NCBI GenBank assembly: GCA_051362555.1
Contig: CM120642.1
Span: 14,508,001 to 14,572,000, forward strand
DNA length: 64,000 nucleotides
Reading direction: 5' to 3'
From: Lingula anatina
Taxonomy: Eukaryota > Animalia > Brachiopoda
The notes under the pieces were generated by a model, which was not told the origin of the DNA, did no database searches, and was given only the letters and a program-made list of their open reading frames with translations. The position numbers and the translations under genes were made by a program. The stretch's first letter is position 1. Each line of letters opens with the position of its first letter. Below, piece by piece: positions 15,883 through 64,000 of this stretch.

Positions 15883-16398
15883 TACAGACTAAGACTACAC
15901 CTTACAAATGCTAACTTTGGCAGTATCACTGAAGTTAAGTTTCTATTTTTGAAAGAGAGTTAAGTCGTAATTATACTGGTAATGTTGTCTACTGTATACT
16001 TACATACAGGAACGCTATTTAACAGCCTTTGTTGAAATTCAATTAACAATTTATTGAATTAAGTTTTTGTTTAAATCAGCATACAGTATCGGCAAATTTC
16101 TATTGGTTTTGTAATGGATACGCGTCGTTTGTGAATTTTTTTTATATCAAAATATTTTAGAGAAATTTAATCCCAGTAATTCAAGCAACGGCTTGTTTCA
16201 AATTGTTTAAACTTTATAGTTTTTAACAACAGTCGTTCTGTTCTTTCAGGCCCTTCAACGATATGTGGAGGAAAACACTAACAGAATTTTTAAGAAAATA
16301 CCTAATTAAAAAAGAAATAAGCCGTTTAAAAACTAAGACGTGGTGACAATATCTGACACAGCTGATGATTTTTGAGTAATACCATAAAAGCTGAAATC

Positions 16399-19300
16399 AT
16401 GGTATTCTTTGACAGAGATAAGAAGTTGCATTACCTAAGAATATTAGATCCATCCTATGATAAGCTCAGTTTTGAAGAAGATCCACAACGGTTGCGGCTG
16501 GAGGACCTGGCAGGCTGGACCGAGTTGCGTGCAAGTTTTGCCGAACTCAATGCACTTCCAGCAACGATTGGGTGGTGTAAGAATCTAAAAGAACTTTACT
16601 TGCAAGGCAACAACTTGACGTCGCTACCGATCTCTCTGTGTTACGCCAAAAATCTCACAGTTTTAGACATTTGTGCCAACAGCCTGTATGAATTCCCTCT
16701 TTCTATATGCAATAACGAGAATTTAGAAACAATATATCTTAGCGGCAACCACTTACACAACATTCCCCCAGATGTGTCAAAACTGACTAAACTGAAACGT
16801 TTATGTTTAAGTGACAATCAGTTCACGATATTTCCTGAGGAAGTGTGCAATATTCCGAATCTCGAAGTTTTATACCTGTGGCGAAACATATTATCTTCGC
16901 TACCAGAAGCCACGACCAATCTGTCAAAGTTAAAAACACTTGATATTTCGAGGAACAGTTTCCTTGAATTCCCAACGCCTGTTTGTTTTCTTCAATCAAT
17001 TGAGTCCTTGAACATTTCTGGTAACAGAATAGAGGTTATTCCAAATGATATTTCAAAACTGACCAATATGTTGATATTTGACATTAGATGGACTGGTGTA
17101 ACAAAGTTGCCGTCTTCTATGTCACAACTAACGCAATTAAAGTCGTTACTGTTAGAGGAAGACAGCATGGTAAGACCACCTGCCACAATTTGCCAGCATG
17201 GAACTGACGCAATTCTCCAGTATTTGTTCGCACTGCTGGAAACCAGAGCAAGTAAGGCATGTATCCTGCAACTGAATTTCTTGGGTGAGGTGGCACGAGG
17301 CAAGACCAGCTTGTCAAGAACATTGCAATCTGGGACGCCATCCTTAACCTCTTCCGTAGATAGAACATCGGTTGTTGAGCAAGGCACATGGAACCCAGAG
17401 GACCATATACGATTTAACATCAACGATTTTGGCGGCCATCAATCGTACAGAGTGGGGCACCCGCTGTTCATCTCAGAGGCCGGTGTTGTATGTATCGTGT
17501 TCAACACCCTTCAGTATGATCCATTATCGGAAGAGGACTTTACGAACAACATTGGCGACTGGATTGACATGATTCAGTCTAGATATCCTGGTATAGACTT
17601 GGTGGTTTTGGGTACACATGTTGACAGGTGCGATGAAGTGAAAGTTGATGAAATCCGTTGCAGTATACAACGAAGAATGCAGGCTCAAGCTGAGAAAAAG
17701 CAAATGTTGCTGGACCAACAAATCGAACATTTGGAGGAACAGATTAGTAGAAACAGACGTTGCGATCTCCCTTTCCTGGAGGCTTATCGAGACAAGTATG
17801 AAAATCTGAAGTCTCTACGTGAATGCACTAAAAATAAAACTCATCCAATTTTCATGGTCAGTTCACAAACATTGCTTGGGTTTGGCGATCTAGAAATATA
17901 TCTTATAAAATTAGCAGAGGCAAAGAAAGTGGAACTGCCAAAACGCTGGTTAGATTTAGCTAGCACTATACTAAAAGATTCAGGGAACTTGCTCACAATC
18001 GACTACGATTATCTTAGACAGAAATTCATGAAGTTGAACGATGTAACCATAGACTTGGCGCCTACCAATGCGAGCAGTGAATTTAATAATGTTATGTGCT
18101 TTCTTGCTTCCAGCGGAGAAATCATTTGGTTCGAAAAGCACCCTGCCTTGAAAAATACCATTTTTCATAGACAGCGACTACTTGCCGACTTACTACGGGT
18201 TGTACTGGACCACAATAATTACGCTCGAGTTAACTTTTTTCTTCAGGAAGGTTTAATTACACAGATGGAGATGGACGACTACACTTTAAGAGGAATCGTC
18301 TCCAGAAATCTGTTGAAGAATTTGTGGAAGACATTCAACCTTAACCATTTTGACATTGACACAATGACAGAATTGCTGAAATCATTGGAGCTGTGTTATG
18401 AGGTACCATGCAAATCCATTATGAGCAAAGACAGTGCCTACCATTTCCCTTGTTTGTTGACGGAAGGGAAACCAGAGCATCTTTCAACAAAATGGCCGCA
18501 CGAGATTTCCCATGAAAAGCACCAATTAAGCCTGAGATTTCAGTTCCATCATGGATGCCCTTGCGGTGTATACGAAAAATTCTCAGTCAGACTACATAGG
18601 CACTTAGGGCTGTTCAAGTTGCGGAGGGTAGATTGGAAAGATGGCTTGTATGCAGAGTTGGGAGCCAACAGCATTCTGGTTCTCCGCCAGCAGCGTGGCA
18701 GAGAATGCACTATCACCATCTCCGTTCGGGGAAAGAAAATACCACAGTTGTGGGAACATCTGTTAAATGCACATAACGACTTGCTGAAAATCCAAACTCG
18801 AGATTGGCCAGGACTGCATTTCACCAAGCACCTAATCTGCCCCCACTGTGAGCGCCTATGCTTGCCAAACCCTTCCGTCTTCCCTGGCGAGATATTGGAC
18901 CTTGAACGGCCCTCAAATGAAACTCGTGGTTTCTACTCTACGGTGCCGTGTGACAATGCCGTGCCTGACAGGTGTATACCCGCCAGCATGGTGATACCGG
19001 CCATGGCAGGTAATGAACTAGTTGTTTCTTTTGTTTGCATAAATAAGAATTGGATGATAAGTTCTTAGCCCCTTGGTGATTTTATTGCAATATCAGTTTT
19101 TTGTAATGTGAAAAATGACAATTTTCAATGCCAATGACAATCTATTTTGTGCATTTTTTTGTGCATTTACACCGAATAAAATCGCCAGAGGGGTAACAGT
19201 AATCTTATGTCTACGAAAAAGATCTTGCCCCAACTAGACGCTATTTTAATTATTGTTTGTACATGTTTACTTTCAGAATTTGCTCCCATGGCCGAGTACA

Positions 19301-19566
19301 ATAAGGCAGCACTCCGCGCTCACCAGAAGGCGCTGGTTGACGATATCACAGAGCCGTGCTTGCGGGACGTCCTGCTACGGTTCCAGCAAGAGGGCATATT
19401 CTCTGAACGAGAGGTGCTGACGGTGAAGAGTCGCGATTCACAAAGAGAGAGGAATGTTATCTTCCTTGACATCCTCAGGACTAAAGAAGAGAGAGCATTT
19501 TATGAGTTTACGCGATACTTGGGAGCCAACGGACAGCTTCATCTCAGCGAACTCCTCCAGTTATAG
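16399..19566 (+). CDS. LRR-Roc-COR-CARD ROCO protein (MFHAS1/MASL1-like with C-terminal CARD), ~966 aa; exons 16399-19009 and 19277-19566
   Basis: About 10 LRRs of 23 aa (e.g. LKELYLQGNNLTSLP). Roc motifs: G1 GEVARGKTS, G3 DFGG, G4 GTHVD, G5 VSS. COR motifs: LPKRW, FLASSGEIIWF, LELCY, YHFPCLL, ICPHC. Phase-1 intron GCAG|gtaatg ... ttttcag-like tttcag|AA joins in frame to a CARD-like six-helix domain (LRAHQKALVDDI...GIFSERE...FLDILRTKEERAFYEF...LSELL). Acceptor upstream of the ATG at 16249/16250. Confidence 0.88.
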
Positions 19567-50205: not shown

Positions 50206-50611
50206 CTAGCGCGAATAGAAAATAGAATTTAGAAAATAGACATTGCATGTGAACGAAGCCTAAGCTGTAACTCTATTTATTTTTAACAAAATGTTTTTCT
50301 GGCTCTCTTTCTTTTCTTTTTTAAAGTTAATTGAGCAGAATTGAAATAAAAAACAGAATACTCTTCTTAATGCGTAATCCTTCCCAAATTTAAATGTACT
50401 TTTCAATGTGTTATCATCATCATCATTATAATTCAATGTTTTTCTATATTTTTCTTTTATCTTTTAAGCAGATGAAAAACACAATTTTCGGCAAAACGTC
50501 AACGTTGTGAGCAACAAACAAGACAAAATTTTCTCTTAAGAAATTTTATTCATCACCTGGGCTACAAAATGCTATAGGCCTTTACAAGCCAATACAGAAT
50601 AGAGCATACGA

Positions 50612-53307
50612 CTAACACGTTGGCCCAACTGTTATACCAACGCCGGCAAACGCAGTGGTCACGGCATTTTGGTCGTAGGTCAAGTCACCAGCCGCTTTCA
50701 TGACGCCACACGCACCTGCTTGGAATGTCGACGTTGAGCTCCAGTACAGTCTGTTGGCTAAGGTCATGGTCTTGAAGGCCTTTTCGACATCCCAACCTGC
50801 AGAGGTGCTGAGAAGGTAAAACGCTTTATTGAACACGCCGCTGCTGTAATGCACGTTTAGGCCGTCGTAGTAATTGTCTACGTGGTCAATAGATCTACCA
50901 TCACTAGGAGGGTTTGACATGCTTCGCAACCCACCGCCGCTCTTGGTTGTGTCCTGGCCGACTTGCCAGTCAACAGCGCCGTACAGATAGTATTCTAAGG
51001 CCTCTCCTGCCATGTCAGAGAAGGCCTCGTTCATACCTCCAGATTGGGTTCGGTATTCAAGCCCGGAATGGTCCTCTGTAAAACCATGAGCAAGTTCGTG
51101 CGCCATGACGTTAAGGGTAGTCAGTGGGTGAAAGTACGTGTCACCGTCACCTATGAAACAGCGATTTCTCCAGTAGAATGCGTTCTCCATTCTGTCGCCA
51201 AAATGTACACCGACTTTCACCGGTTTTGGGACGATGGCATCAAGGCCTGACCAGGTCTGGAACATTTCATAGGTTTTCTCTGCGAAGTAAAGGGCATCAT
51301 TGGTAGGGCTGTAAGCTCCGTTTGTGACATCGGCGGCATTGTTAAAATCATTGGTACAGTCGACATTATAAACGCCCACCTGTGCCAGAAGTGCATCCAT
51401 CTGTGAGCTTGTCATGCTCATGGATCCCTGTCCACCACAGTTGTAGACCTGAACGTTAGGCGTGGAGAAAGAGCAGGTACTTGTCCCGGTTGCGCGGTCG
51501 AGAGGAAGATAACCATGGCCTCTACTGCTGCACGTCTCCTGGCGCTTTTTGGCCGATCTGCAAATATCACAAATATTGCTCATAAACAAAAAAGCAATGT
51601 GATGATTGAATAAGAACAAAGCAAGTAATGTAAGATACTTCTAACGAAAGACAAAGGCGAGAACATTAGATGAAACATTCATCATCTGTTTACCCATATG
51701 ATATGGGACCTGGATTGTCATCTAACATTATCATAGATAAAAATTCTTTCCAGAGATACTACTCTTCCGGCAGTTGATATAAAACAATTAAGGTCTGCTT
51801 TTTGGACACACTGTTGATATCTTTCAATGTGCCTCGTAGTTTGTTCAAATCGTATTAAGGAAAAGTAAAATACAGATGAGAATATTTACAAATATCCAAA
51901 CTGGATTCGTAAAAATATCAAAATAACAAATTAAATTGTAATCTGTCACTTTGATCAATAATTACCCTGAGCCAATGTTCCTCCAACACCCTATGGACCT
52001 GAAATGAATGAATTGAATTCTTTGATATTCGTTGCTTGTGCATTTGTAAGAACAGAATGAAATTTAAAATTGTTACACTTAATACTTTAACTTCTCAAGC
52101 TACACTCTCACGAGGACACGTGCTTTAAATCTCAGTTGCTGCAGTATATACTTCCACGTCTCAAAAACCAGCGTTTTGCAGGGCCATATCAAATATGTCA
52201 CTTACGGTGGACTTTGGGTCGGTGCTTGTGTCGGTGCTTGTGTCGGAGCTTGAGTCGGTGCTTGTGTCGGAGCTTGCGTCGGGGCTTGCGTCGGAGCTTG
52301 AGTCACTCCAGTTTCACTGCAGTCTCCTGCAGCATTGCCGTATACCCATTTGCCGCTTTTCACATTTCCACCAACGCCCCTGATGTCAACTTTTTCTTTG
52401 GTGAGGCTTTCAAATGTCAACAAAATGGCACCATCGTTAGCATCTATGTAAAAGATCGGCTCACTGAATCCAGTTGTATCGTTGACCATGGTGAAGCGTG
52501 TTTTCCAGGTAAGATGGGCTTTGGAATTGAAAATTGCAACTTCAATATCAGCTTCTTCGTTCGCGACTGTAGCAACTTCAGCAGCTGACAAAACAGACTT
52601 TGCAATATCCAGGGCATCTGCCTTTGAAAGAGCTGGTTTTAGGTCGGATATATCCCCGTTGATGTCGCCATAGATAAGGCCAGCGACCACGCTGTCAAAA
52701 TGGCCCTTGTCTTCCTCCACAACCACCACAGTACCACGGACCGGAATACCATTCCACTTTTGGCGAAGTCTGACAAGTGTTCCCTTTGGAACGTTCACAG
52801 ACTCTACGGCGCTTAGACTACTGCTTGCCTCGTAGGCGGCAGACGTGATAAGTTGGTTCGCGTTTTGGAAGTGACCCGTTGTTGCCACCTCCTCTGCGTT
52901 GAGTTCCCTTGCTGCCTCACAAGAGTACATTGCTTCAGTGGACCAAAAGGGGAAAAAGAAATAACTGGCTCAGTGATAGTGTTTGCTTAGACGAAAGAAT
53001 TTTAATATCAATACTGACGTACACCCCGTATGATCAGGTAAGATACAAATCGAATCTGACGGAAATAAATATGTTTGAATCCAATATTAAAACAATCTCC
53101 ATAAATGTTCTTGTACGTCAAACGCAACGTCGTGTTTTGTTACTGTGGTTGGTTGTAGCCTTATATTCCGTATTTTATGCGAAAGTGCTACCTTAGGGTT
53201 AGAGAAATATTGAATGTAATATGCACCTGAAGGCAACTGTTTTTAAGCATGTAAAATAGGTATCACCTACCCAGCAGCAGTAAAGTTGCTTCCGCTATGA
53301 GACGCAT
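50612..53307 (-). CDS. Secreted M4-family (vibriolysin/LasB-like) zinc metalloprotease A, ~569 aa; coding exons 53307-53271, 52932-52206, 51557-50612
   Basis: Signal peptide MRLIAEATLLLL|AMYSCEA split by a phase-1 intron. FTP-like (VRLRQKWNGIPVRG) and PepSY-like (FYIDANDGAIL) propeptide. Mature start GVGGNVKSGK. NGAYSPTNDA, HELAH (HExxH), GGMNEAFSD, NVHYSSGVFN. Phase-2 intron CC|gtaag...tttgcag|A. Summed CDS 1710 nt, in frame. Confidence 0.9.
52208..52303 (-). repeat. Coding 12-bp tandem repeat, (TQAP)7-TQSP mucin-like linker
   Basis: Eight units ACN-CAA-GCN-CCG with synonymous third-position variation. Confidence 0.92.
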
Positions 53308-53573
53308 GTTTGTGACTTCTTTACCTTAAAAAAATACTGAAATAATAAAATTGAAGCATCTTCTCAAAGAGAAAAAACATTTGCGTAAGATTTGTAAGTA
53401 CTACAGGTGGATAAGAATTGTATATCTCCCCTGGAAAACCAAACTTAATCACATTTGCTCGATCAAAATTTCCCCTTGACCAAAAATTTCGACTTTTCGC
53501 AGTTTCAGCGTTTTACACATGATGAATGAATATGATGAATACTGATGAATATGTAAGAAAATTATTAACTTAC

Positions 53574-53657
53574 CGATACACCGTGCAATCGCTCAATGTG
53601 CGATTCCTTTGAATCTGAGCCAACTTCAGAGTATAGAATCGTTTTTATGGCTATATA
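53574..53657 (-). promoter_or_regulatory. Putative TATA box and short non-coding first exon of M4 gene A
   Basis: Minus-strand TATATAG at 53657-53651. Donor G|GTAAGT at 53573. Downstream acceptor ttttttaag at 53325 precedes the ATG exon. Confidence 0.45.
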
Positions 53658-54918
53658 ATGCGTAGGTGTGACAAATTATTACAATAGAATTAAGCAAGAA
53701 ATAATGGCAGTGGCGTAATTAGAGACCACTATACAGCTGGGTTCCTGCGAGTGGCTAATCGTCATGTCGTCACATTTATTGTGGTCATGAGTACGGTGGC
53801 TGGTTACATGGGGATACCAAGAAAATTAATTCTTTTAGGACCATACAATTCCATTTAATTTATTTTTTCTCTTATTGGCCACGGGTTAGATTATTTATTG
53901 CATCTTATAATTTTACGCCAGCATGTACATTGACTTTTTACAGTTGAGAGGCTTTTTGTAAAAACGTTTCCAGTGCAATAATAGTGGGATCCCTTTCACA
54001 CGTCATATGATTTATGAATATCACTTTGTTGCAACAAACATCATACAGTGTACCTACACTTTGGTATAGCTTACATCGAACTTCCTCACAATGGGGACAC
54101 ATAAAGTAAATTTCGTCTTCTGTGGCTCTGAGATCACCAACGCAATTAGGAACATGTTATACAGTGTTAATGTATGCGTATGTGCCTGTGCATATCTGCG
54201 TGTCTGTCTCTCTGTTTGTATGTGTGCAACAAAAAATACCTCAGTATTTGATACAGAATAGCCTGCTAAATGATATACGTGCATAAAATATATATGTATA
54301 AGCATTATGATAAAGCCAATAAAAGATTCCGTTTTTCGGATGGGCAAAATATTTGTTGAGTAAATTTTTTCTCTCAAATGTATCAATTGACAAAATTTCA
54401 GTCAAGAGGTATATGTAGTAGGTCTCCCTAACTAACAACAAAATGCGAAAGTTTTTTGAACACCACCCAAATAATAAATTGACTTGAAACCATTTGCAGG
54501 TGTTGCCTGATAGTTTTAACTTACAGATTCTTACACAAGTGACAAGTTCGTCACTACACGTTTGCACGTGTATGCAGGTGCATTATCAGAGTCACAAATT
54601 GGACATCAAATTAAACTTTTTAATGACGCACTAAATTGAAGTTGTATGTAAGATTGTCAAAGTGTCAAAGTTGAATGCCCTACCCCATCAAATGAATCGC
54701 ACGTTGTTGAGGCAAGTTGTGTGTATTCTTCACGGCGCATTTTTTATTGGGGGTTATAATCTCAAGTTAACGTGGGTAACAAAGTTTGTGTGTTGCACAT
54801 AGAAACAAAAACTGCGAGTCATAATTCTTGGAAAGAAATAAAAAGAGCCATTCAATATGGTTGGATTTTTTGTAGTTATTAAATGCTATGCCGGGGAGCA
54901 ATTTTCACAAAACATCTG

Positions 54919-55941
54919 GGCCCAGTTTTAAAAAAGGTGTTTAGCACTAACTAGTGTATCAGTCTAACCAGTGGATAAAATATCTAAAGGCCGGTTATCT
55001 AAACGACGTTAAAAATTGTCTTTTATAAGCCGGTAAGCTAAATAGTGTTGGAACAGTTTAAGCATTATCCAGATCATACTTGGAATTGAAATTTCCTAGA
55101 ATGCATGATGTTGCTATGAACAAAATAAAAGACCCCTAATATATATATATATCTTTCATACTACTTGGCTTTACTGTCTGTACACAATCTCTGAAATTGA
55201 CGGTAAAAAAATATACCAAGAACGCTCAATTGTTGCTTTATTACTTGCCATGATAACCAAGAGAATTGCTTCTGTTGCTAAAAATCTGAAGCAAGATTTC
55301 TGGAACAAGATCATGAACTGTTCATTTTGGTTAAAAAATGAATTTTCCTGGGGTAAAGGACTACTATAGTGGTAAATGAATCCATTCCGACATTCAGAGT
55401 TAGCCCCTGTTTTTTTTCTAAAGAGTTTTTTTCTTTGTAATATTCTCTTAAGAAAATATTACAGAGTGTAGCCATCTATGGAAGTCAGGTGATGTGGTGG
55501 CAAGCACAAGTTCCAGAATTATTGCTATTTTGGTGCTAAAATAGAATTCATATATTTCTATGAGTTGTTTACAATGTATTTTCTTGTGAAATATGGACAT
55601 CATATGAACAGTTGTTATCTCTTTAAATATTTTCTAAATACGAATTTTCCTAATCAGTTGCTGTATAAGAATTGCATTTCATTGTTTAAAAACTCTTTCT
55701 TAATCTTGCAGACATGAAACTTTTAGGATTTCAGACAAGCCTCAGGATCTTTGTCATATTTATCCAACGCTTACGAAATTTAAACTACCTCCTATGAAAG
55801 TATAAACTTAACCGACCGTGTTGGAGTTTAAACCGTTTGTTTGTGTGAAACATGGTTTATGAAACACTGTTAAAATTCGTTTAAGTTACACGTTGGATTG
55901 AAACTTCGGTTTATGCTAAACGACCTTTATTGAACTTGGCC
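54919..55941. mobile_element. ~1-kb Harbinger-like non-autonomous element with CTG TSD
   Basis: TIR ggcccagttttaaaaaaggtgtttagca / tgctaaacgacctttattgaacttggcc. CTG at 54916-18 and 55942-44. Confidence 0.75.
55331..55626. mobile_element. Degenerate TTAA-type (Kolobok/T2-like) MITE nested in the Harbinger-like element
   Basis: Homologous to 61305-61628 (aatgaatccatt..cattca.agttag.ccctgtttttttt..; ttgtgaaatat.gac.tcata.gaa.agtt.ttatc.ctttaa). Confidence 0.6.
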
Positions 55942-56678
55942 CTGGTAATTTATTTACGTTTACCCTTTACACGAAAGCAGATATTCCAACATAATTGTTT
56001 CGAACGGTGCAATTGACGACATAACCTGCCCGTCGACAACACGTGTTTGCAATTAAAGCGCACCTTCAACTTTACTGATAATGATAGTGCGCGATTTGCC
56101 AACCTGCATAACCTGCATTGCTCATAAACACGCTTCAGAATGATACACCTGCGGGGTATCTACAAAAGACAATGATCAATACAAGCCATGCCCTTTCTTA
56201 CTTGAAACTGTCCACAACGCGACTTATACGAAGATGTGGCTGGGGGGTTTGGAAGAGGGGCACTTCACTCCCAACTCTGTGCGCATGTACTATAAATTTT
56301 ACAGCGACTTGATCTATAGACTGTACTGAATCAATCTTTGTCAATGAGGGAAATTTAGGACAGTGCCCCCCTAAATGTTAATTTCTTGCCAAATACGGTA
56401 AGTATCGTGGGGGAATGCTCTATGAAAACGAAATTTGCTAGTGTTTTTCGAAAATTGACCAGTGCCATCGTCAAGTATTTGTTCATTCATGGCTTCGTAC
56501 CCCCAAAAGCAATTTTAAATCAATTTGGTTATTTTGTTCGGGTCAAGGTAAATTCAGTCATTGCCATCAGAACCATCTGGGAATAATGACAGTGAATTGA
56601 AATGGATTTTTAATGAAAGATCATCTCCACGTCATTTATGCCATACGGGTGGATCATGTGATTTGGTTTTTGCGTACG

Positions 56679-56752
56679 TATAAGAATCGATACGATCGGT
56701 GCATCTTGGAGCGGTTTTTGCCAATCTGCTAACCAAAAGACGTACTAATCAG
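56679..56752 (+). promoter_or_regulatory. Putative TATA box and short non-coding first exon of M4 gene B
   Basis: TATAAGA at about 56679 and donor CAG|GTGAGG at 56753. Mirrors the layout of gene A. Confidence 0.4.
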
Positions 56753-57010
56753 GTGAGGTGGCCTATGTTGAATTATCGTGGAAGAAATGATTAAGATTCA
56801 ATTGGTTAAACGCACACATAGATTCGTTGACTCCATTAATTTATTTATGCAAAATACAAATCTATTCCTCTTTGACAGTCCTTAAGAAAATCGTACATAC
56901 ATATGTCGAGTAACAGAAAGGATATATCACCAATAATTCTACAGGGAATCAGTTATAATCAGTCATAATTTGAATTCAAGGTATTCAAAAGAGGAGAGAA
57001 GAGGCGCGAC

Positions 57011-59132
57011 ATGCACTTAAGCCAATTCAGGGTGTGGTATGTGCTGGCAGCAGCAGGTAAAAGAGTGCTTTGGTTTATTATTATTTTTTAATATCATTAC
57101 GTTTGAATAGCCTATTGTTAAAAATAAAATACTGATAATAAATGCTGTATCAGTATATATTTTCATCGTGCTTATTTTTGTCAAAATTTTCACTTTATAT
57201 TTCAATCGTTCAGAATAGGTTTATATAACCAAAAAAGACAAAAAACTAGACTAACGCAGTTTTTTATCAGTAGGAATCAAATATTAGTGAGACAAAACTT
57301 TAGATCATTGATCACCCGTAGCGTGAAGCTGGATCGCTGAAGAATATACACTGCATCAACACACCTATATCCCATTGCTAATTGTAGTCCATTAACAGTG
57401 AGTGCCTTAACGTTTTTTTTTTTCAGTTTTTTCTCTGTCACCAGCTGATGCTGTCAAGGAGATAGACGCCACAGCGTACGCTATCGATACAACCAGCTCT
57501 GACCCCATCAACCTCATTCAGGGTCTCAATCAAGGTGACAATTTTCGTCCAATCACAGGATTCAGGCGCTTCGATGGTGTTCAGAAGGTTCGCTTCGAAC
57601 AGACGTATAAAGACATCCCGGTTTACGGATCGGTAGTTGTCATGGAAAAGAATTCGAATGGGGAATTTTACGATGTTTCTGACGGGGAGCTATTCGAGGA
57701 TATCCTAATGGACTTGAACGAGACTAACCCGATGGTAACTATAGCGGAAGCTATCGATATCGCCATAGCCGCCGTCAGTGATCCAGAATCTGCGTTCAAA
57801 TCTGAAGCCATTGCCGACCTCCTAGTCTCTGATGAAGGCGGATATGCCCATCTGATTTATCGCGTAAAATTTCTGGCGAAAAAGGGTAGCGGTTACTCCA
57901 GCCCGGTTGTAATCGTTGATGCGCTTAGCGGTGAAGTTTTGAGAAATTTTGAGTCCCTGATGACCGAATCTATTCAAATTGGCGGAGTTGGTGGCAATGT
58001 CAAGTTCGGTAAATATGTCTTTGGCAACAGCGCCGGAGATTGTTCTACTGGAGGTGGTGGTGGCGGTGGTGGCACCCCGACCACTGCCGGGCCAACTACC
58101 ACTGCCCCCGAGGTCACCACCAACTCCACCGACTGGGATTGGTATGACTATGACTGGAATACTACATCTAATGCTACGGCTAATGCCAATATTACCCGAC
58201 GTCAAGTCGAATCTTGCAATGCCAACCAATTCCCTAAATTAATCGTCGACAAACTGGCTAACGGCAAATGCGCGCTAAAGTCAACAAACACCCAGATATA
58301 TCATGTCCAGGGAAAGTCTGCTGAGCAAGATCCCGGACTAGGTGAACTCCTGAAAGAGGTCTATTCAGTTGACTGCACCAATAATTTCAACAATGTCAAC
58401 GATTTTGCAAATGGCGGTTACAGCCCTGCGAATGACGCGTTTTTCTATAGCGAAAAGACATTTGAGATGTTTCAGAAATGGTTGAAGAAACCGGCCGTGA
58501 AAGTGGAACCTCCAGGTCCCTTGAAAATTGCCGTTCATTTTGGTACGAACCTCGAGAATGCCTTCTACTACAGAGATCGCTGTTTCTTCGGTAATGGTGC
58601 CGACACCTTCCACCCTCTCGTTGATGTGAATGTAGTTGCTCACGAGCTCGCCCATGGTTTTACTGAGGACCACTCTAATCTTGAATACGTAGACATGTCA
58701 GGGGGTATGAACGAAGCATTTTCGGACATGGCCGGGGAAGCCTTAGAATATTACCTGTTCGGAAAGGTCGACTGGATCGTTGGAGGAGCTTCCATGAAAG
58801 AAGCAGGTAAAGGACTTCGGTACTTCGACGATCCTACAAAAGATGGGCAATCCATTGGCCACGCCCGAGATTTCAGAGCTGGCATGAGCGTTCATCTCAG
58901 TAGTGGGGTTTACAACAAAGCTTTCTACACTCTAGCCAATACCAATGGTTGGAACGTGGAAAAGGCTTTCAGGGTCTTTGGTACTGCCAACGTTGTTTAT
59001 TGGGGAGCCAAAGCTACCTTTAATACCGGCGCCTGTGGGGTTCGCAAGGCAGCTGCTGATCTGAAACTACCCACTCAAGATGTTATTAATGCCTTCAGCA
59101 GCGTTGGTGTCACCTGCACTTCAGCTAAGTAA
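57011..59132 (+). CDS. Secreted M4-family (vibriolysin/LasB-like) zinc metalloprotease B, ~583 aa; coding exons 57011-57056, 57427-59132
   Basis: Signal peptide MHLSQFRVWYVLAAA|VFSLSPADA with a phase-1 intron (CAG|gtaaaa...tttttcag). FTP motif KVRFEQTYKDIPVYG, PepSY motif IVDALSGEVL, GVGGNVKFGKY, NGGYSPANDA, HELAH, GGMNEAFSD, GLRYFD, VHLSSGVYN. CDS 1752 nt, in frame. AATAAA near 59245. Confidence 0.92.
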
Positions 59133-60216
59133 AAGTGAGCATCCACTGGGCAATGATACAGCAGAAGATTTTTTGGTTTTTCTAGTGCTGAAGTTGTTTA
59201 CTAAGATTGTCAATTTACGGTTTTGAAAGCGATTTTTAAAGGAAAATAAAATATTGAAAGATGGATGTTTTGTCCAAGCTGCTATCATTTCAGATCGCCA
59301 ATATTTTAATTTTTTTTAGTTTTTACTCGGTATAATATACACACACAAAGAGACATAAAACTGATACCTTGACACAAACAGTCCTATTTAAAATCTATTG
59401 AAAGTGCTTTGGGCGCGTTTCAAAGGATGGCAGTTTTACGTGGTCATTCAATTGAAAATAATAATGACCAACTATAGAATGGTAGTGTCTGATAGCACGA
59501 AAAGCTGAGGTGTTGGGCCAGTGGTGGAAAATGTTAATAAGTTACAAGAATAGAAAATGTGTACATTATATATATCTTTCTTTCAGAATCTGCTACAAGG
59601 GCACTTGTTTAATTATAGCACAATAAAAAAAGTTGGTTGGATAGGACTCCACACATACCAAAATTATTAAACAGCTGTGTTACTTCAATTTTTGAAAAAG
59701 CAGTTCGGGGATTCTTGGATAATAACGGTTGTAAAAAAAAGTCATGTGTAAATCTTTAAGGTATTAGTTAGGGATTCATCGTTTTGCCCCCAAATTTAGT
59801 CTCTGAAATTTTTGTCTTGAAATAAACATGTGTACTGTAGTGACAAACACAAGCCAACAGTGACATAGATATATATGCAAAGACACATCTAACTCGATTT
59901 CACTGAGCGCGGCATATCAAAGGAGTAAGAATTTTCAGATTGCCCCATAAAAATTCCACTTCACATTACTATAATATTGGGTTTAGATTATTTTGGTGCA
60001 TGGATTTGTTCAGTTATTTTTCTAAAAATCACGTGGTACCCCAGCAGCCTTATGAGTAGGGCCTAACCGTTTGAAACGGAGAAGCCTGAATGAAAGATAC
60101 TGAAAGGCCTACAATACAAGTTACACCTTTATATAGAAAATCAATTAATCTTTCAGGAAAATTCAACAAATGCGGTTGGTCGAAAACGATGCGAAATATT
60201 GATTTCCTCGAAATTA

Positions 60217-61058
60217 TGGCCGGTGTAACATGAAAATCTGACTCCCATGGAAATCTGACTCCCCCAGTCAAAATTTCATGATGAAAATCTGACTCCCCCC
60301 ATGAAATTTTGACTCCCCCTCAAAAAACTTTATAAATCTTATTTTATTTGAGTATATAACTTTTATCTTGTAGTATGCATAATGGAGGATACATTGGCAC
60401 TTTTTGAAAATTTTCATGGGAAAATAAGAAAATTAAAAATGTGTATTTTTCCACCCAATGACTCCTATGAAAAGGCTATGGGAGTCAAAATCCTACAGGT
60501 AGTAAGATGAATACTTGTTTCAAAAATTATCAATTTTCACCAAACTTTTCACCACCAAACTTTTAAATACTAACAAAATATATGTCACAATGCAAACCAT
60601 GTGGAATACAATGGTATGGTGACTGAATATAAAATAGGGCCTTTTCTTCATGGGAGTCCAAATCCCTTGGGTATGAATATGAAGATTTTTCATTATTTTT
60701 TTCACCCAATATTTTACCACCAAGCTTTCAAATATTTCCAATATATTCTTCATAAAGTATACTTAAGGGAAAGATGTTGAAATGATCACCAAATATCAAA
60801 TAAATAGCTTTTTCATAGGGGAGTCATTTTTAGTTTTCTTATTTTCTCATTAAAATTTTCACCTGCAAATTAAAAAAGTACCAGTGTATCCTTCATTATG
60901 CATCCTACAATATAAAAGTAATATACTCAAATTAAATAAGATTTATAAAGTTTTGTGGGGGGAGTCAAAATTTCATAGGGGGAGTCACATTTACATTATG
61001 AAAATTTGACTGGGGAGTCAAATTTTTGGGGAGTCAGATTTTCATGGTACACCGGTCA
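60217..61058. mobile_element. ~840-bp foldback MITE with long inverted arms, between M4 genes B and C
   Basis: TIR ccggtgtaacatgaaaatctgactccc / gggagtcagattttcatggtacaccgg. Arms of roughly 250 bp with gaaaatctgactcccc subrepeats. Possible TTA TSD (60214-16, 61059-61). Confidence 0.8.
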
Positions 61059-61304
61059 TTAACCAACTTATCAACTTTGCTTTTTCCTCGCCAGCTCCAT
61101 TACAAGAGAGTTTAAAAACTTCAAAACTTGGAATTCAAAAAATGGTTTTATAGATTGTGATTTTGTCGTCGGTGATCGATATGGTGTGTCTGAAAGATTA
61201 AAGAAAAGTTGTGGAAATTTCAAGGAAAATCAAAATTTAGCTATACAAAGTTGCATGTATGCCTTTTTTAAAAGCTCAGAGACGTGTGCCAGCGGTTTGC
61301 TTAA

Positions 61305-61628
61305 AGGGATAATAGAATTTTCACGGAGTAAACAACAATTTTCCCATGCTAACCAATGGTTAATGAATCCATTTTTACATTCAAAGTTAGTCCCTGTTTT
61401 TTTTCTCAAAAGTTTGGTTTTTTGTTAAAATCTCTTAAGAGATTTTAACAGAGTATAACCATCAATGGAGGTCACGTGGTTTGAAGACAAGCTCAGATAT
61501 CAAAATAATAGCTATAACTGCTGTTTTTGTCGTAAAACAGAATATATTATATTTCTGATTAATATATTGAGTTATTCACAATGTTTTTATTGTGAAATAT
61601 AGACCTCATACGAAGAGTTATTATCCCT
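61305..61628. mobile_element. TTAA-flanked MITE (Kolobok/T2-like)
   Basis: TTAA|agggataata ... tattatccct|TTAA. Second copy at 55331-55626. Confidence 0.75.
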
Positions 61629-62162
61629 TTAATAAGAATTGGACTTGATACTCAGAGGGTTTCAATAAACACATAACGCATATATTTTCGATTATTTTAG
61701 ATGCGATGACATTTTTTCTATTTAAACCGTGACGATGTATTGATACAGTAATGGGATGAGTATAAATTACTATCAGGATAAAATAACTACCGAATGTGCA
61801 CGATTACAAGTTGAGCACTCCACTGATAAATGTATATTGAAACTGAATAGATATGGACGAAGAAAAGAGAGCGTTTATATGGAAATTGTAAGATAACATA
61901 AAGGCCCTCAAAACAGGTCGTCCGCGGGAAACAAACAATACGGGTTGGTTTGACGTTTTCCGGCAGGGGTATAGCGCTCTTTAATTTAAAAAGTCCGCCA
62001 GTACGTAATGATTTAAATGTAACAAAGTAAAACAGCTTTTATTTGTACCAAAAGTTCTTGCCATACTCAGAAAAAAAAAAGGATAAAGGCAGAATAAGCA
62101 GAATTATAATAAATTGCATAAAGCTATTATGGTTGATCTTCTTTCATGGTAGACAATCCTTA

Positions 62163-63874
62163 TTACTTAGCTGAGGTGCAGGTGACACCAACGCTGCTGA
62201 AGGCATTAATAACATCTTGAGTGGGTAGTTTCAGATCAGCAGCTGCCTTGCGAACCCCACAGGCGCCGGTGTTAAAGGTAGCTTTGGCTCCCCAATAAAC
62301 AACGTTGGCAGTGCCAAAGACCCTGAAAGCCTTTTCCACGTTCCAACCATTGCTATTGGCTAGGTTGTAGAAAGCTTTGTTGTAAACCCCACTACTGAGA
62401 TGAACATCCATATCGGATCTGAAATCTCGGGCGTGGCCAATGGAATGCCCATCCTTTGTAGGATCGTCGAAGTACCGAAGTCCTTTACCTGCTTCTTTCA
62501 TGGAAGCTCCTCCAACGATCCAGTCGACCTTTCCGAACAGGTAATATTCTAAGGCTTCCCCGGCCATGTCCGAAAATGCTTCGTTCATACCCCCTGACAT
62601 TCCTGTATACTCAAGGTTAGAGTGGTCCTCGGTAAAACCATGGGCGAGCTCGTGAGCAACTACATTCACATCAACTAGAGGGTAGAAGGTGGTGGCACCA
62701 TTGCCGAAGAAACAGCGATCTTTGTAGTAGAAGGCATTTTCATGGTTCGTACCAAAATGAACAGCAATTTTCAAGGGACCTGGAGGTTCCACTTTCACGG
62801 CTGGTTTCTTCAACAATTTCTGAAACATCTCAAATGTCTTTTCGCTATAGAAAAACGCGTCATTCGCAGGGCTGTAACCACCGTTTGCAAAATCGTTGAC
62901 ATTGTTGAAATTATTGACACAGTCAACTGAGTAGACCTCTTTCAGGAGTTCACCCAGTCCGGGATCTTGCTCAGCAGACTTTCCCTGGACGTGATATATC
63001 TGGGTGTTTTTTGACTTTAGCGCGCATTTGCCGTTAGCCAGTTTGTCGACGGTCAGTTTTGGGAATTGGTTAGCACTGCAAGACTCAGCTTGTCGCCGTC
63101 GTCTGATTAACAACTTGTCGTCTGTGCCAACTGAATAACTCTCTTCAGTCCAATACCAGTCGTCGTCGTCGTGGTATGACGGTTCGGTCGTATGCTCGGG
63201 AGAAGCTGTAGTTGGTCCAGCGTTGGGCTGTGGGGTGCTGCTGCCGCCTCCAGTGGAACAATTCCCCGCAGGGTTACCAAAGACATACTTTCCGAACTTG
63301 AGATTGCCCCCAACTCCGCCAATTTGAATAGATTCGGTCATCAGGGATTCAAAACTTCTCAAAACTTCGCCGGTATCAGCGTCAACGATTACAACCGGGC
63401 TGGAGTAGCCGCTACCCTTTTTCGCCAGAAATTTTACGCGATAAATTAGATGGGCATATCCGCCTTCATCAGAGACTAGGAGGTCGACAACGGCTTCAGA
63501 TTTGAACGCAGATTCTGCATCACTGGTTGCGGCTATGGCGACATCGATAGCTTCCTCTATAGTTATCATCGGGTCAGTGTCGTCCAAGTCCGTTAGGATA
63601 TCCTCGAATAGCTCCCCGTCAGAAACATCGTAAAATTCCCCGTTCGAATTCTTCTCCATGACGACTACCGAGCCGTAAACCGGGATATCATTATACGTCT
63701 GTTCGAAGCGAACCTTCCGAACACCATCGACGCGTCTGAATCCTGTCACTGGACGAAAATTGTCGCCTTGTTTTAGCCCTTGGATCAGCTCAGTGGGGTC
63801 GGTGCTGGTTGTACTGATAGTGTACGCTGTTGCATCTATCTCCCTGATTGCATCAGCTGGTGACAAGCAAAAAA
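62163..63874 (-). CDS. Secreted M4-family zinc metalloprotease C (5'-partial; signal-peptide exon lies beyond the window)
   Basis: Acceptor ctctttcag at 63875 in the same phase-1 position as gene B (VFCLSPADA). Same FTP/PepSY/catalytic motifs (HELAH, NEAFSD, DVHLSSG). Nearly identical to gene B outside the inserted loop. Confidence 0.92.
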
Positions 63875-64000
63875 CTGAAAGAGAAGATCAAGACATTGAC
63901 ACTGTTTTGTAATAGAATTACTACAGGAAAACATTTTGATAAAGCTATGCAATAATGAATAAAGATGCATGTTAACAAACATATTTACAATTAAGTTGAA

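What the first reader, a model, noticed from the sequence alone, without database searches (positions are those of the whole stretch)
58041..58217. Cys-bracketed loop with dibasic site + Gln inserted into the mature catalytic domain: a possible animal-added processing switch
Seen in all three paralogues, right after the mature N-terminal motif (GGNxKxGKxVxG): Cys, then a low-complexity segment of about 45-60 aa, then dibasic-Gln-x2-3-Cys. A: GDC...AKKR-QETC (52321-51530). B: GDC...ITRR-QVESC (58041-58217). C: GNC...IRRRR-QAESC (63260-63078). Established: in vibriolysin/LasB the YxYG motif runs almost directly into the F/YPxxxxxK strand with no such insert. KR/RR and RxRR are proprotein-convertase/furin sites, and an exposed N-terminal Gln is typically cyclised to pyroglutamate. 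Inference: the two new cysteines staple the loop, and convertase cleavage yields a disulfide-linked two-chain protease. That would put maturation under host secretory-pathway control in addition to, or instead of, bacterial autoprocessing. The flanking Cys, dibasic site and Gln are kept while the loop interior is unalignable, which argues for function.
Basis: partly seen in the sequence, partly recalled or inferred. Interest (0 to 1): 0.9.

Follow-up and report, generated by a model that had tools for sequence, protein, structure and literature searches.

The report
Cut-and-stapled loop in borrowed protease
Three Lingula brachiopod proteases of a mostly bacterial family carry an extra loop of about 57 residues, missing from every relative examined, which the animal's processing enzymes likely cut while a predicted disulfide holds the two pieces together, and which may put a self-activating bacterial-type enzyme under host control.

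Summary
Three LasB/vibriolysin-type M4 paralogues (B is 99% identical to a Lingula anatina protein) carry a 66-residue insert after residue 18 of the mature domain: Cys, a 57-59 aa S/T/P-rich loop, a dibasic site, Gln, Cys. The insert is absent from 356 of 356 parsed homologues. No bacterial genome or metagenome match has the first Cys, whereas the control pattern finds about 1000 stretches. The loop changes fast (27 of 47 codons differ in residue between B and C, against 17 of 304 downstream), yet its Cys, P1 Arg, Gln and length persist. Corrections: RNA reads show a 33-nt micro-exon that adds a third Cys to A's loop; only C has a full furin RxRR site; other members of the same eukaryote-like clade, including another Lingula M4, lack the insert; the bacterial autoprocessing junction is kept. 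Best reading: convertase cleavage yields a disulfide-held two-chain enzyme in addition to autoprocessing, like a C-peptide (0.55). That the cut controls activity is about 0.3. Cleavage, disulfide and regulation are all untested, and the Cys-Cys distance could not be measured.

The parts
57011..57056 (+). Paralogue B exon 1, most of the signal peptide; phase-1 intron follows
   Evidence: Matches the N-terminus of P0271/P0003; no RNA joint listed for it
57427..59132 (+). Paralogue B exon 2: end of signal peptide, FTP/PepSY-type propeptide, M4 catalytic domain with insert
   Evidence: ORF and Pfam; models; a few RNA reads in X12 and X15
57453..57971 (+). B propeptide, ending at the predicted autoprocessing site
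   Evidence: Model matches MCP-02 propeptide chain 3nqz_A, target TM 0.80; Ile at 57972 aligns with LasB residue 1
57972..58043 (+). B mature N-terminal segment (24 aa) ending in Cys1; start of the predicted light chain
   Evidence: 71% identical to A, the best-kept region; pLDDT 86-91 over the first 20 residues
58044..58202 (+). B loop: Gly run, Thr/Pro-rich stretch, acidic-aromatic stretch, four N-glycan sequons, Arg-Arg (58197-58202)
   Evidence: pLDDT under 50 for mature residues 27-71
58203..58217 (+). B Gln (predicted new N-terminus, pyroglutamate candidate) to Cys2
   Evidence: Sequence; motif absent from 385 other proteins
58641..58655 (+). B HEXXH zinc motif
   Evidence: Invariant in 124 of 124 rows of alignment A1, with the third-ligand Glu and the catalytic His and Arg
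62163..63887 (-). Paralogue C main exon (its first exon is presumed to lie beyond the window)
   Evidence: compare P0004
63078..63260 (-). C insert: Cys1, 59-aa loop, four Arg, Gln, Cys2
53271..53307 (-). Paralogue A exon 1 (signal peptide), phase-1 intron as in B
   Evidence: Open-frame splice model; RNA depth over it; the joint itself not listed
52206..52932 (-). A exon 2: propeptide, N-terminal segment, Cys1 (52321), seven TQAP units
   Evidence: donor shown by reads; acceptor inferred
51966..51998 (-). A micro-exon, 33 nt, in frame, inside the loop; encodes a third loop Cys (51988)
   Evidence: CT..AC joints in RNA run X12, 7 and 6 reads; translation
50612..51557 (-). A last exon: Lys-Lys-Arg, Gln (51541), Cys2 (51532-51530) and the rest of the catalytic domain

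Best explanation
These three Lingula M4 proteases carry a lineage-specific, C-peptide-like loop inside the catalytic domain that a host proprotein convertase likely cuts after the dibasic site, while a predicted Cys1-Cys2 disulfide keeps the 24-residue N-terminal segment attached, giving a likely two-chain enzyme. Steps: (1) secretion by a signal peptide (sequence; inferred). (2) Folding on the retained propeptide to a LasB fold with the loop extruded (modelled). (3) Cys1-Cys2 close the base of the loop (inferred). (4) A convertase cuts after Arg, a carboxypeptidase trims the basic residues and the new Gln cyclises, shielding a terminus 3-4 residues from the staple (inferred from known pathways). 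(5) The bacterial self-cut before Ile/Val still removes the propeptide (inferred). The glycosylated, length-constrained loop most likely serves as a second pro-piece that restrains or packages the enzyme until the cut; that regulatory role is the weakest step (about 0.3).
For: The insert replaces two residues of LasB, so its ends must converge, and the Cys sit 6 residues after and 5 residues before the anchors in B. In the mature model both Cys (residues 24 and 82) fall outside the pLDDT<50 stretch 27-71. P1 Arg, Gln and both Cys are kept in 7 of 7 insert-bearing sequences, with loop length 54-60, although A and B share 16% in the loop and 57% in the core. B versus C: 27 of 47 loop codons change residue against 17 of 304 downstream and 3 of 24 in the N-segment. 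In diverged individuals the change listed at A's site is Lys to Arg, which keeps it dibasic (5 of 5 reads in X18, 2 of 2 in X19). All 8 changed codons in A's TQAP repeat are synonymous, and the units differ at third positions. The third extra Cys of B (residue 391) sits where 302 of 339 matched proteins have Met, so it is likely buried and not the partner. In the 12-row sister group 8 rows carry a basic-rich extension at the propeptide junction, against 10 of 286 other homologues, which suggests that this clade repeatedly gains convertase-type sites. Dibasic cleavage and pyroglutamate were confirmed by mass spectrometry in a related spiralian (PMC8557429, passages).
Against: No cleavage, disulfide or activity was observed. 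Only C has the furin P4 Arg; A and B are plain dibasic sites, and B and P0271 have an N-glycan sequon at P5 that could hinder the cut. In the zymogen model both Cys lie inside the pLDDT<50 stretch 194-255; in the mature model a low-confidence helix covers the site (residues 70-80, block pLDDT 52). The mature parts have an odd number of Cys (7 in B and C, 9 in A with the micro-exon), so pairing is inferred. The sample is shallow: in effect two lineages (A and B/C) from one species. The synonymous excess in A's repeat could come partly from reads laid out of register. Micro-exon joints were listed in one run only.
Confidence: 0.55

Rival explanations
1. The loop is cut, but by the enzyme itself or by an extracellular trypsin-like protease, and the disulfide only rescues the N-terminal segment; the cut is housekeeping with no effect on activity.
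For: A and B lack the furin P4 Arg. B and C loops hold exposed Trp/Tyr/Ile residues of the kind thermolysin-family enzymes prefer at P1' (preference from established knowledge). The loop is predicted to be disordered.
Against: Paired basic residues followed by Gln are kept across lineages with 16% loop identity, and a Lys to Arg variant keeps the pair; a trypsin-like cut needs only one basic residue.
Confidence: 0.17
2. The loop is never cut. It is a disulfide-closed, mucin-like appendage for solubility, protease resistance, sorting to secretory granules or binding to matrix, and the basic pair has another role.
For: S/T/P fraction 0.36-0.42, conserved length 54-60, four sequons in B; synonymous-only change in A's repeat; a sequon next to B's site.
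Against: It does not explain why Arg-Gln sits a fixed 3-4 residues before Cys2 in all 7 sequences, nor the four Arg of C.
Confidence: 0.15
3. The convertase site replaces autoprocessing: propeptide, N-terminal segment and loop leave as one long pro-region and the active enzyme starts at the Gln.
For: Sister-group proteins appear to have moved to basic sites at the pro/mature junction. Gln is a typical protected mature N-terminus. The propeptide is only 30% identical between A and B.
Against: The N-terminal segment is the best-kept region (71% A versus B) and takes its LasB place in the model. Cys1 would have no purpose. The junction keeps bacterial length and Ile/Val at residue 1.
Confidence: 0.08
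4. The loop is a tethered inhibitor that reaches the zinc, through the micro-exon Cys in A or the acidic-aromatic stretch in B and C, like a cysteine or aspartate switch; the cut releases it.
For: A has a loop Cys; B and C share an Asp/Trp/Tyr-rich stretch; 57 residues give ample reach. [quoted passage not shown]
Against: No loop motif is shared between A and B/C. A has exactly one other Cys that B and C lack (residue 306), which would pair with the micro-exon Cys and leave none for zinc. Neither model gives the loop an ordered conformation.
Confidence: 0.05

Closest known systems
LasB (pseudolysin), vibriolysin MCP-02 and Legionella ProA: peptidase family M4
   Same: FTP/PepSY propeptide plus M4 and M4_C domains; intact zinc and catalytic residues; mature model aligns to all 298 LasB residues, Z 45.4, rmsd 1.0 A; both conserved disulfide pairs present by alignment.
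   Different: Single-chain bacterial enzymes with two residues where the trio has 68; no Cys-bracketed loop, dibasic-Gln site or introns. The trio also has a second insertion of about 14 aa between the first conserved Cys pair.
Proinsulin and convertase-processed multi-chain proteins (complement C3, C4, C5, factor I)
   Same: An internal linker cut after basic residues, trimmed by carboxypeptidase, with chains held by disulfides (PMC9296861, passages). A pyroglutamate start of the second chain is known in relaxin (recalled, no call).
   Different: Unrelated folds. The trio has one dibasic site, not two, so the loop would stay on the light chain unless trimmed. Here the device was added inside one compact domain of a bacterial-type enzyme. 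Cleavage is shown there and only inferred here.
Legionella PlaA and PlaC inhibitory disulfide loops
   Same: A disulfide-closed loop on an enzyme whose processing activates it (PMC10017501, passage).
   Different: Those are lipases cut by the M4 protease ProA; here the M4 protease bears the loop and the predicted cutter is a host convertase.
Other members of the eukaryote-like M4 clade (P0255 of Lingula; P0065, P0127, P0134, P0141, P0147, P0195, P0233, P0238 and others, mostly unnamed)
   Same: Same branch of the tree, 100/96 for 22 rows; secreted; 8 of the 12 sister rows have basic-rich extensions near the mature start.
   Different: Their basic sites lie before the N-terminal segment, at the propeptide junction, as in furin-activated MT-MMPs and ADAMs (recalled); no Cys-bracketed loop; most carry C-terminal domains that the trio lacks.

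Membership tests
Peptidase family M4 (LasB/vibriolysin group) | HEXXH plus downstream Glu third zinc ligand, catalytic His and Arg | tested here: met
   Invariant columns H397, E398, H401, E421, R456, H481 in 124 of 124 rows
Peptidase family M4 (LasB/vibriolysin group) | Peptidase_M4 and Peptidase_M4_C domains; thermolysin fold | tested here: met
   Pfam above cut-off in A, B and C; Foldseek target TM 0.97 and VIA Z 45 to LasB and MCP-02
Peptidase family M4 (LasB/vibriolysin group) | Signal peptide and FTP/PepSY propeptide | tested here: met
   FTP above cut-off in all three; PepSY below cut-off in A and C and not listed in B; propeptide fold matches 3nqz_A
Peptidase family M4 (LasB/vibriolysin group) | Autocatalytic removal of the propeptide and proteolytic activity | not testable with these tools
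   Junction length and Ile/Val at residue 1 are kept, but no activity can be measured
Convertase-processed, disulfide-linked two-chain proteins | Secretory protein with paired basic residues in an exposed loop | tested here: met
   Dibasic site in 7 of 7 sequences; loop predicted disordered
Convertase-processed, disulfide-linked two-chain proteins | Full furin consensus R-x-[KR]-R | tested here: inconclusive
   Met in C, P0004 and P0272; not met in A, B, P0003 and P0271, which have plain dibasic sites
Convertase-processed, disulfide-linked two-chain proteins | Interchain disulfide spanning the cut | tested here: inconclusive
   Both Cys conserved and placed at the loop base, but no coordinates were returned; confidence at the Cys is low in one model and moderate in the other
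Convertase-processed, disulfide-linked two-chain proteins | Cleavage seen in the protein | not testable with these tools
   Needs gels or N-terminomics
Cysteine-switch or aspartate-switch zymogens | Conserved pro-segment motif whose Cys or Asp binds the catalytic zinc | tested here: inconclusive
   No loop motif is shared by A and B/C; the loop is unresolved in both models
Nuclear animal gene (against bacterial contamination) | Spliceosomal introns, spliced poly(A) RNA, animal-type neighbours | tested here: met
   Spliced reads for A in X12; shared phase-1 intron in A and B; LRR-Roc-COR, CARD and SLC6-type exons in the window; 9 runs from 3 studies hold half or more of A's words

The most novel reading that the evidence does not exclude
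Animals tamed a horizontally acquired, self-activating bacterial protease in two separate ways: one lineage put convertase sites at the propeptide junction, while Lingula built an insulin-style, disulfide-stapled C-peptide into the catalytic domain. There it works as a second lock that only the host's convertase opens, with a micro-exon in paralogue A adding a second staple.
Probability: 0.3. Interest if true: 0.75.

Novelty: new variant of a known kind. Interest (0 to 1): 0.55.

Why it matters
Family M4 is described as known almost exclusively from bacteria (PMC7851659, abstract passage). Here is a spliced, expressed animal group with a processing device built into the catalytic domain. If the cut is real it would be, within the searches made, the first two-chain thermolysin-family enzyme. 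It would also be a compact case of how a borrowed gene is fitted to the host secretory pathway, with a sister group that seems to have solved the same problem differently. It shows that the fold tolerates a 66-residue insertion and a likely chain break after residue 18, which is useful for building convertase-gated proteases. The reach is narrow so far: one species, no protein-level data.

Tried and rejected
No whole genome was held for this window, so copy number in the genome was not counted. P0003/P0004 and P0271/P0272 lie on two different contigs and may be alleles or a second cluster; this was not resolved. A search with the insert region alone returned only the 2 Lingula clusters among 1863 candidates, and a search with A's last exon found no A orthologue, so no other brachiopod sequence could be tested; proteins outside the searched length ranges were not candidates. 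Complex prediction for the two predicted chains gave 'no answer' (score 0.04, alignment not used). The ESM Atlas could not be reached. No RNA holder was listed in the run index; raw-read runs were laid instead, and X16 gave no reads. No joints were listed for X18, X19 or X13, so constitutive use of A's micro-exon is open. An in-frame acceptor 21 nt upstream of A's last exon was dropped because reads use 51557. Pairing of B's Cys391 with an insert Cys was judged unlikely. Contamination was rejected. Nine paper searches (listings only) showed no description of animal M4 proteases or of this insert; subscription journals are mostly not covered. The Lingula genome paper has no hit for protease, peptidase or horizontal in its main text, and none for thermolysin, elastase or vibriolysin in its one readable supplement (PMC4595640). 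The supplements of the metazoan HGT compendium (PMC13342648) could not be read and may list these genes. Three look-ups of earlier scan findings returned nothing. ProP, SignalP and glycosylation predictors were not available.

Full report
WHAT THE WINDOW HOLDS. Positions 50600-63900 carry three secreted M4 metalloprotease genes: A (minus strand, four exons), B (plus) and C (minus). Pfam finds FTP, Peptidase_M4 and Peptidase_M4_C above cut-off in all three. The nearest proteins are Lingula anatina LOC106154861 (99% to B) and LOC106154862 (85%); all other listed hits are far lower. The genes are nuclear. A is spliced in poly(A) reads, A and B share a phase-1 intron after the signal-peptide exon, the window holds LRR-Roc-COR, CARD and SLC6-type coding pieces, and 9 runs from 3 studies hold half or more of A's words.

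THE OBSERVATION. The Cys, dibasic site, Gln and second Cys are at the coordinates given. Run X12 shows two joints (7 and 6 reads, CT..AC ends) that define a 33-nt in-frame micro-exon at 51998-51966. It brings A's spacing from 46 to 57 residues and adds a third Cys. These joints were listed in 1 of 7 runs laid; X13 and X18 had thin depth on the micro-exon bin, X19 none, and X16 no reads. With four related Lingula database proteins the range is 54-60 residues in 7 of 7 sequences.

WHERE THE INSERT SITS. B's Ile188 aligns with residue 1 of mature LasB. LasB passes from Gly18 through two residues to Tyr21, and B has 68 residues in that place. The mature model (mean pLDDT 85.0, pTM 0.85) aligns to all 298 LasB residues at 1.0 A, so the N-terminal segment docks normally and the insert loops out. 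Zinc ligands and catalytic residues are invariant in 124 of 124 aligned rows. In the zymogen model both insert Cys fall in the pLDDT<50 stretch; in the mature model that stretch is residues 27-71, and Cys24 and Cys82 lie outside it. Coordinates were not returned, so the disulfide is inferred from the convergence of the insert's ends and from conservation, not measured.

IS IT UNIQUE? Only the top hits of each search were examined: 120 of 884, 150 of 7889 and 120 of 848. Of 388 held proteins with HEXXH, 363 could be parsed and 25 could not. In the 356 non-trio proteins the segment from the GGN motif to the next anchor has median length 61 and maximum 91, against 137-145 in the trio; 0 of 356 have the dibasic-Gln-Cys motif there, and 0 of 385 have it anywhere. 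A degenerate DNA pattern for the N-terminal motif plus Cys1 found 0 matches in GTDB genomes and 0 in JGI metagenome contigs, but 3 in the window. The same pattern without the Cys gave 128 loci in 9 of 64 parts of the genome collection, about 1000 estimated. Of these, 120 had the downstream anchor at 58-65 residues and no early Cys; 8 lacked the anchor. The pattern only sees a Cys at exactly the Lingula offset.

HISTORY. In a 63-row tree built with the insert removed, the five insert-bearing rows form a group (100/99). It lies inside a 22-row branch (100/96) that holds another Lingula M4 (P0255, with a C-type lectin domain and no insert) and mostly unnamed proteins; all named bacterial rows lie outside (midpoint root, so the direction of transfer is inferred). 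I label the unnamed rows eukaryote-like by inference: P0229 is labelled as from a Siedleckia transcriptome and P0255 as Lingula; the rest have no name. The insert therefore arose after the gene was in this lineage, before A split from B/C. In the 12-row sister group, 8 rows have a basic-rich extension at the propeptide junction, against 10 of 286 parsed other homologues (of 345); the trio's junction has bacterial length and no basic pair. So related proteins appear to have gained convertase-type sites at a different place.

SIGNS OF SELECTION. A versus B identity is 71% in the N-terminal segment, 16% in the loop, 57% in the core and 30% in the propeptide. Between B and C, 27 of 47 aligned loop codons change residue, against 3 of 24 in the N-segment, 2 of 8 at the site and 17 of 304 downstream. 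Among 41 listed read variants of A in diverged individuals, 40 are coding and touch 38 codons, 22 synonymous and 16 not. All 8 in the TQAP repeat are synonymous, with the caveat of out-of-register reads. The one at the cleavage site turns Lys to Arg and keeps the pair (5 of 5 reads in X18, 2 of 2 in X19). None of the listed variants touches Cys1, Gln or Cys2; 5 rows were not shown. The loop thus keeps its brackets, length and S/T/P-rich make-up (0.36-0.42) but not its sequence.

CYSTEINE ACCOUNTING. B and C have 7 Cys in the mature part: two pairs that match LasB's by alignment, the two insert Cys, and Cys391. Cys391 sits where 302 of 339 matched proteins have Met, so it is likely buried and free, leaving Cys1 and Cys2 to pair. 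A has two Cys that B and C lack, the micro-exon Cys and residue 306; a second tether between them is a reasonable guess and is untested.

HOW IT MOST LIKELY WORKS. Shown: the insert, its place, its absence elsewhere, its conserved brackets, intact catalytic residues and splicing. Modelled: a LasB fold with the loop extruded. Inferred: the Cys1-Cys2 bond, a convertase cut after Arg, carboxypeptidase trimming and pyroglutamate at the new N-terminus, as in proinsulin and complement proteins (PMC9296861, passages) and in spiralian neuropeptides (PMC8557429, passages). Self-removal of the propeptide, as described for thermolysin-like proteases (PMC10017501, passages; Gao et al. 2010 seen only as a reference entry), probably still happens. 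The product would be a light chain (24-residue segment plus loop) clamped to a heavy chain of about 309 residues. I put this at 0.55. That the cut gates activity I put at about 0.3; the loop could equally be a sorting or solubility element whose cut is neutral. Against the model: only C has a full furin site, B has a sequon at P5, a low-confidence helix covers the site in one model, and the evidence is in effect two lineages from one species.

COMPARISON AND VERDICT. The proteins are members of family M4 by every feature testable here. They work, if the inference holds, like convertase-processed two-chain proteins, with which they share no ancestry. Nine literature searches and the Lingula genome paper showed no description of the insert or of animal M4 enzymes; unread supplements and subscription journals may hold one. 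PMC4376888 (passages) and PMC7851659 (passages) were used only for family background. Relaxin's pyroglutamate chain and furin activation of MT-MMPs and ADAMs are recalled, not checked. Verdict: a real, apparently undescribed variant of a known family; interest 0.55.

Noticed in passing
P0065, P0127, P0134, P0141, P0147, P0195, P0233, P0238: Unnamed eukaryote-like M4 proteases with basic-rich extensions at the propeptide/mature junction; 11 of 18 clade representatives also have a furin-like site in the first 70 residues. A second route to host-controlled maturation, in what looks like an undescribed animal M4 family.
   Followed up: partly
P0255 and P0113: M4 domains fused to eukaryotic modules: a C-type lectin in Lingula LOC106178470, and two ShK domains in P0113, which falls in a different branch among bacterial rows and may be a separate transfer.
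   Followed up: partly
window about 58300-58370 (B) and the matching parts of A and C: A second insertion of about 14 aa between the first conserved Cys pair, present in all three paralogues; modelled with short helices at pLDDT about 81.
   Followed up: no
window 51998-51966 and A residue 306: A has two introns inside the loop while B and C have none there; the symmetric micro-exon carries a Cys that may pair with A's other private Cys.
   Followed up: partly
window 58130-58160 (B) and the matching stretch of C: Acidic stretch with Tyr and Trp, expanded to five Tyr in P0272; resembles tyrosine-sulfation sites (recalled pattern, not tested).
   Followed up: no
window 58041-58075 against P0003 and P0271: The Gly run after Cys1 varies in length (8 in the window and P0271, 5 in P0003); P0271 has C-like residues just after the site, which hints at gene conversion between B and C.
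   Followed up: no
window 55316-55620: A dispersed repeat with high RNA and contig depth, many loose ends and opposite-strand joints between 55333 and 55604, like a small inverted-repeat element.
   Followed up: no
window 16369-19068 and 19180-19566: A long single-exon LRR-Roc-COR reading frame followed by a CARD-coding piece, probably one innate-immunity ROCO gene.
   Followed up: no
P0227, P0144, P0328: A few homologues have unrelated inserts of about 20-30 aa further along this segment, some Lys-rich, without flanking Cys; the region tolerates insertion.
   Followed up: no
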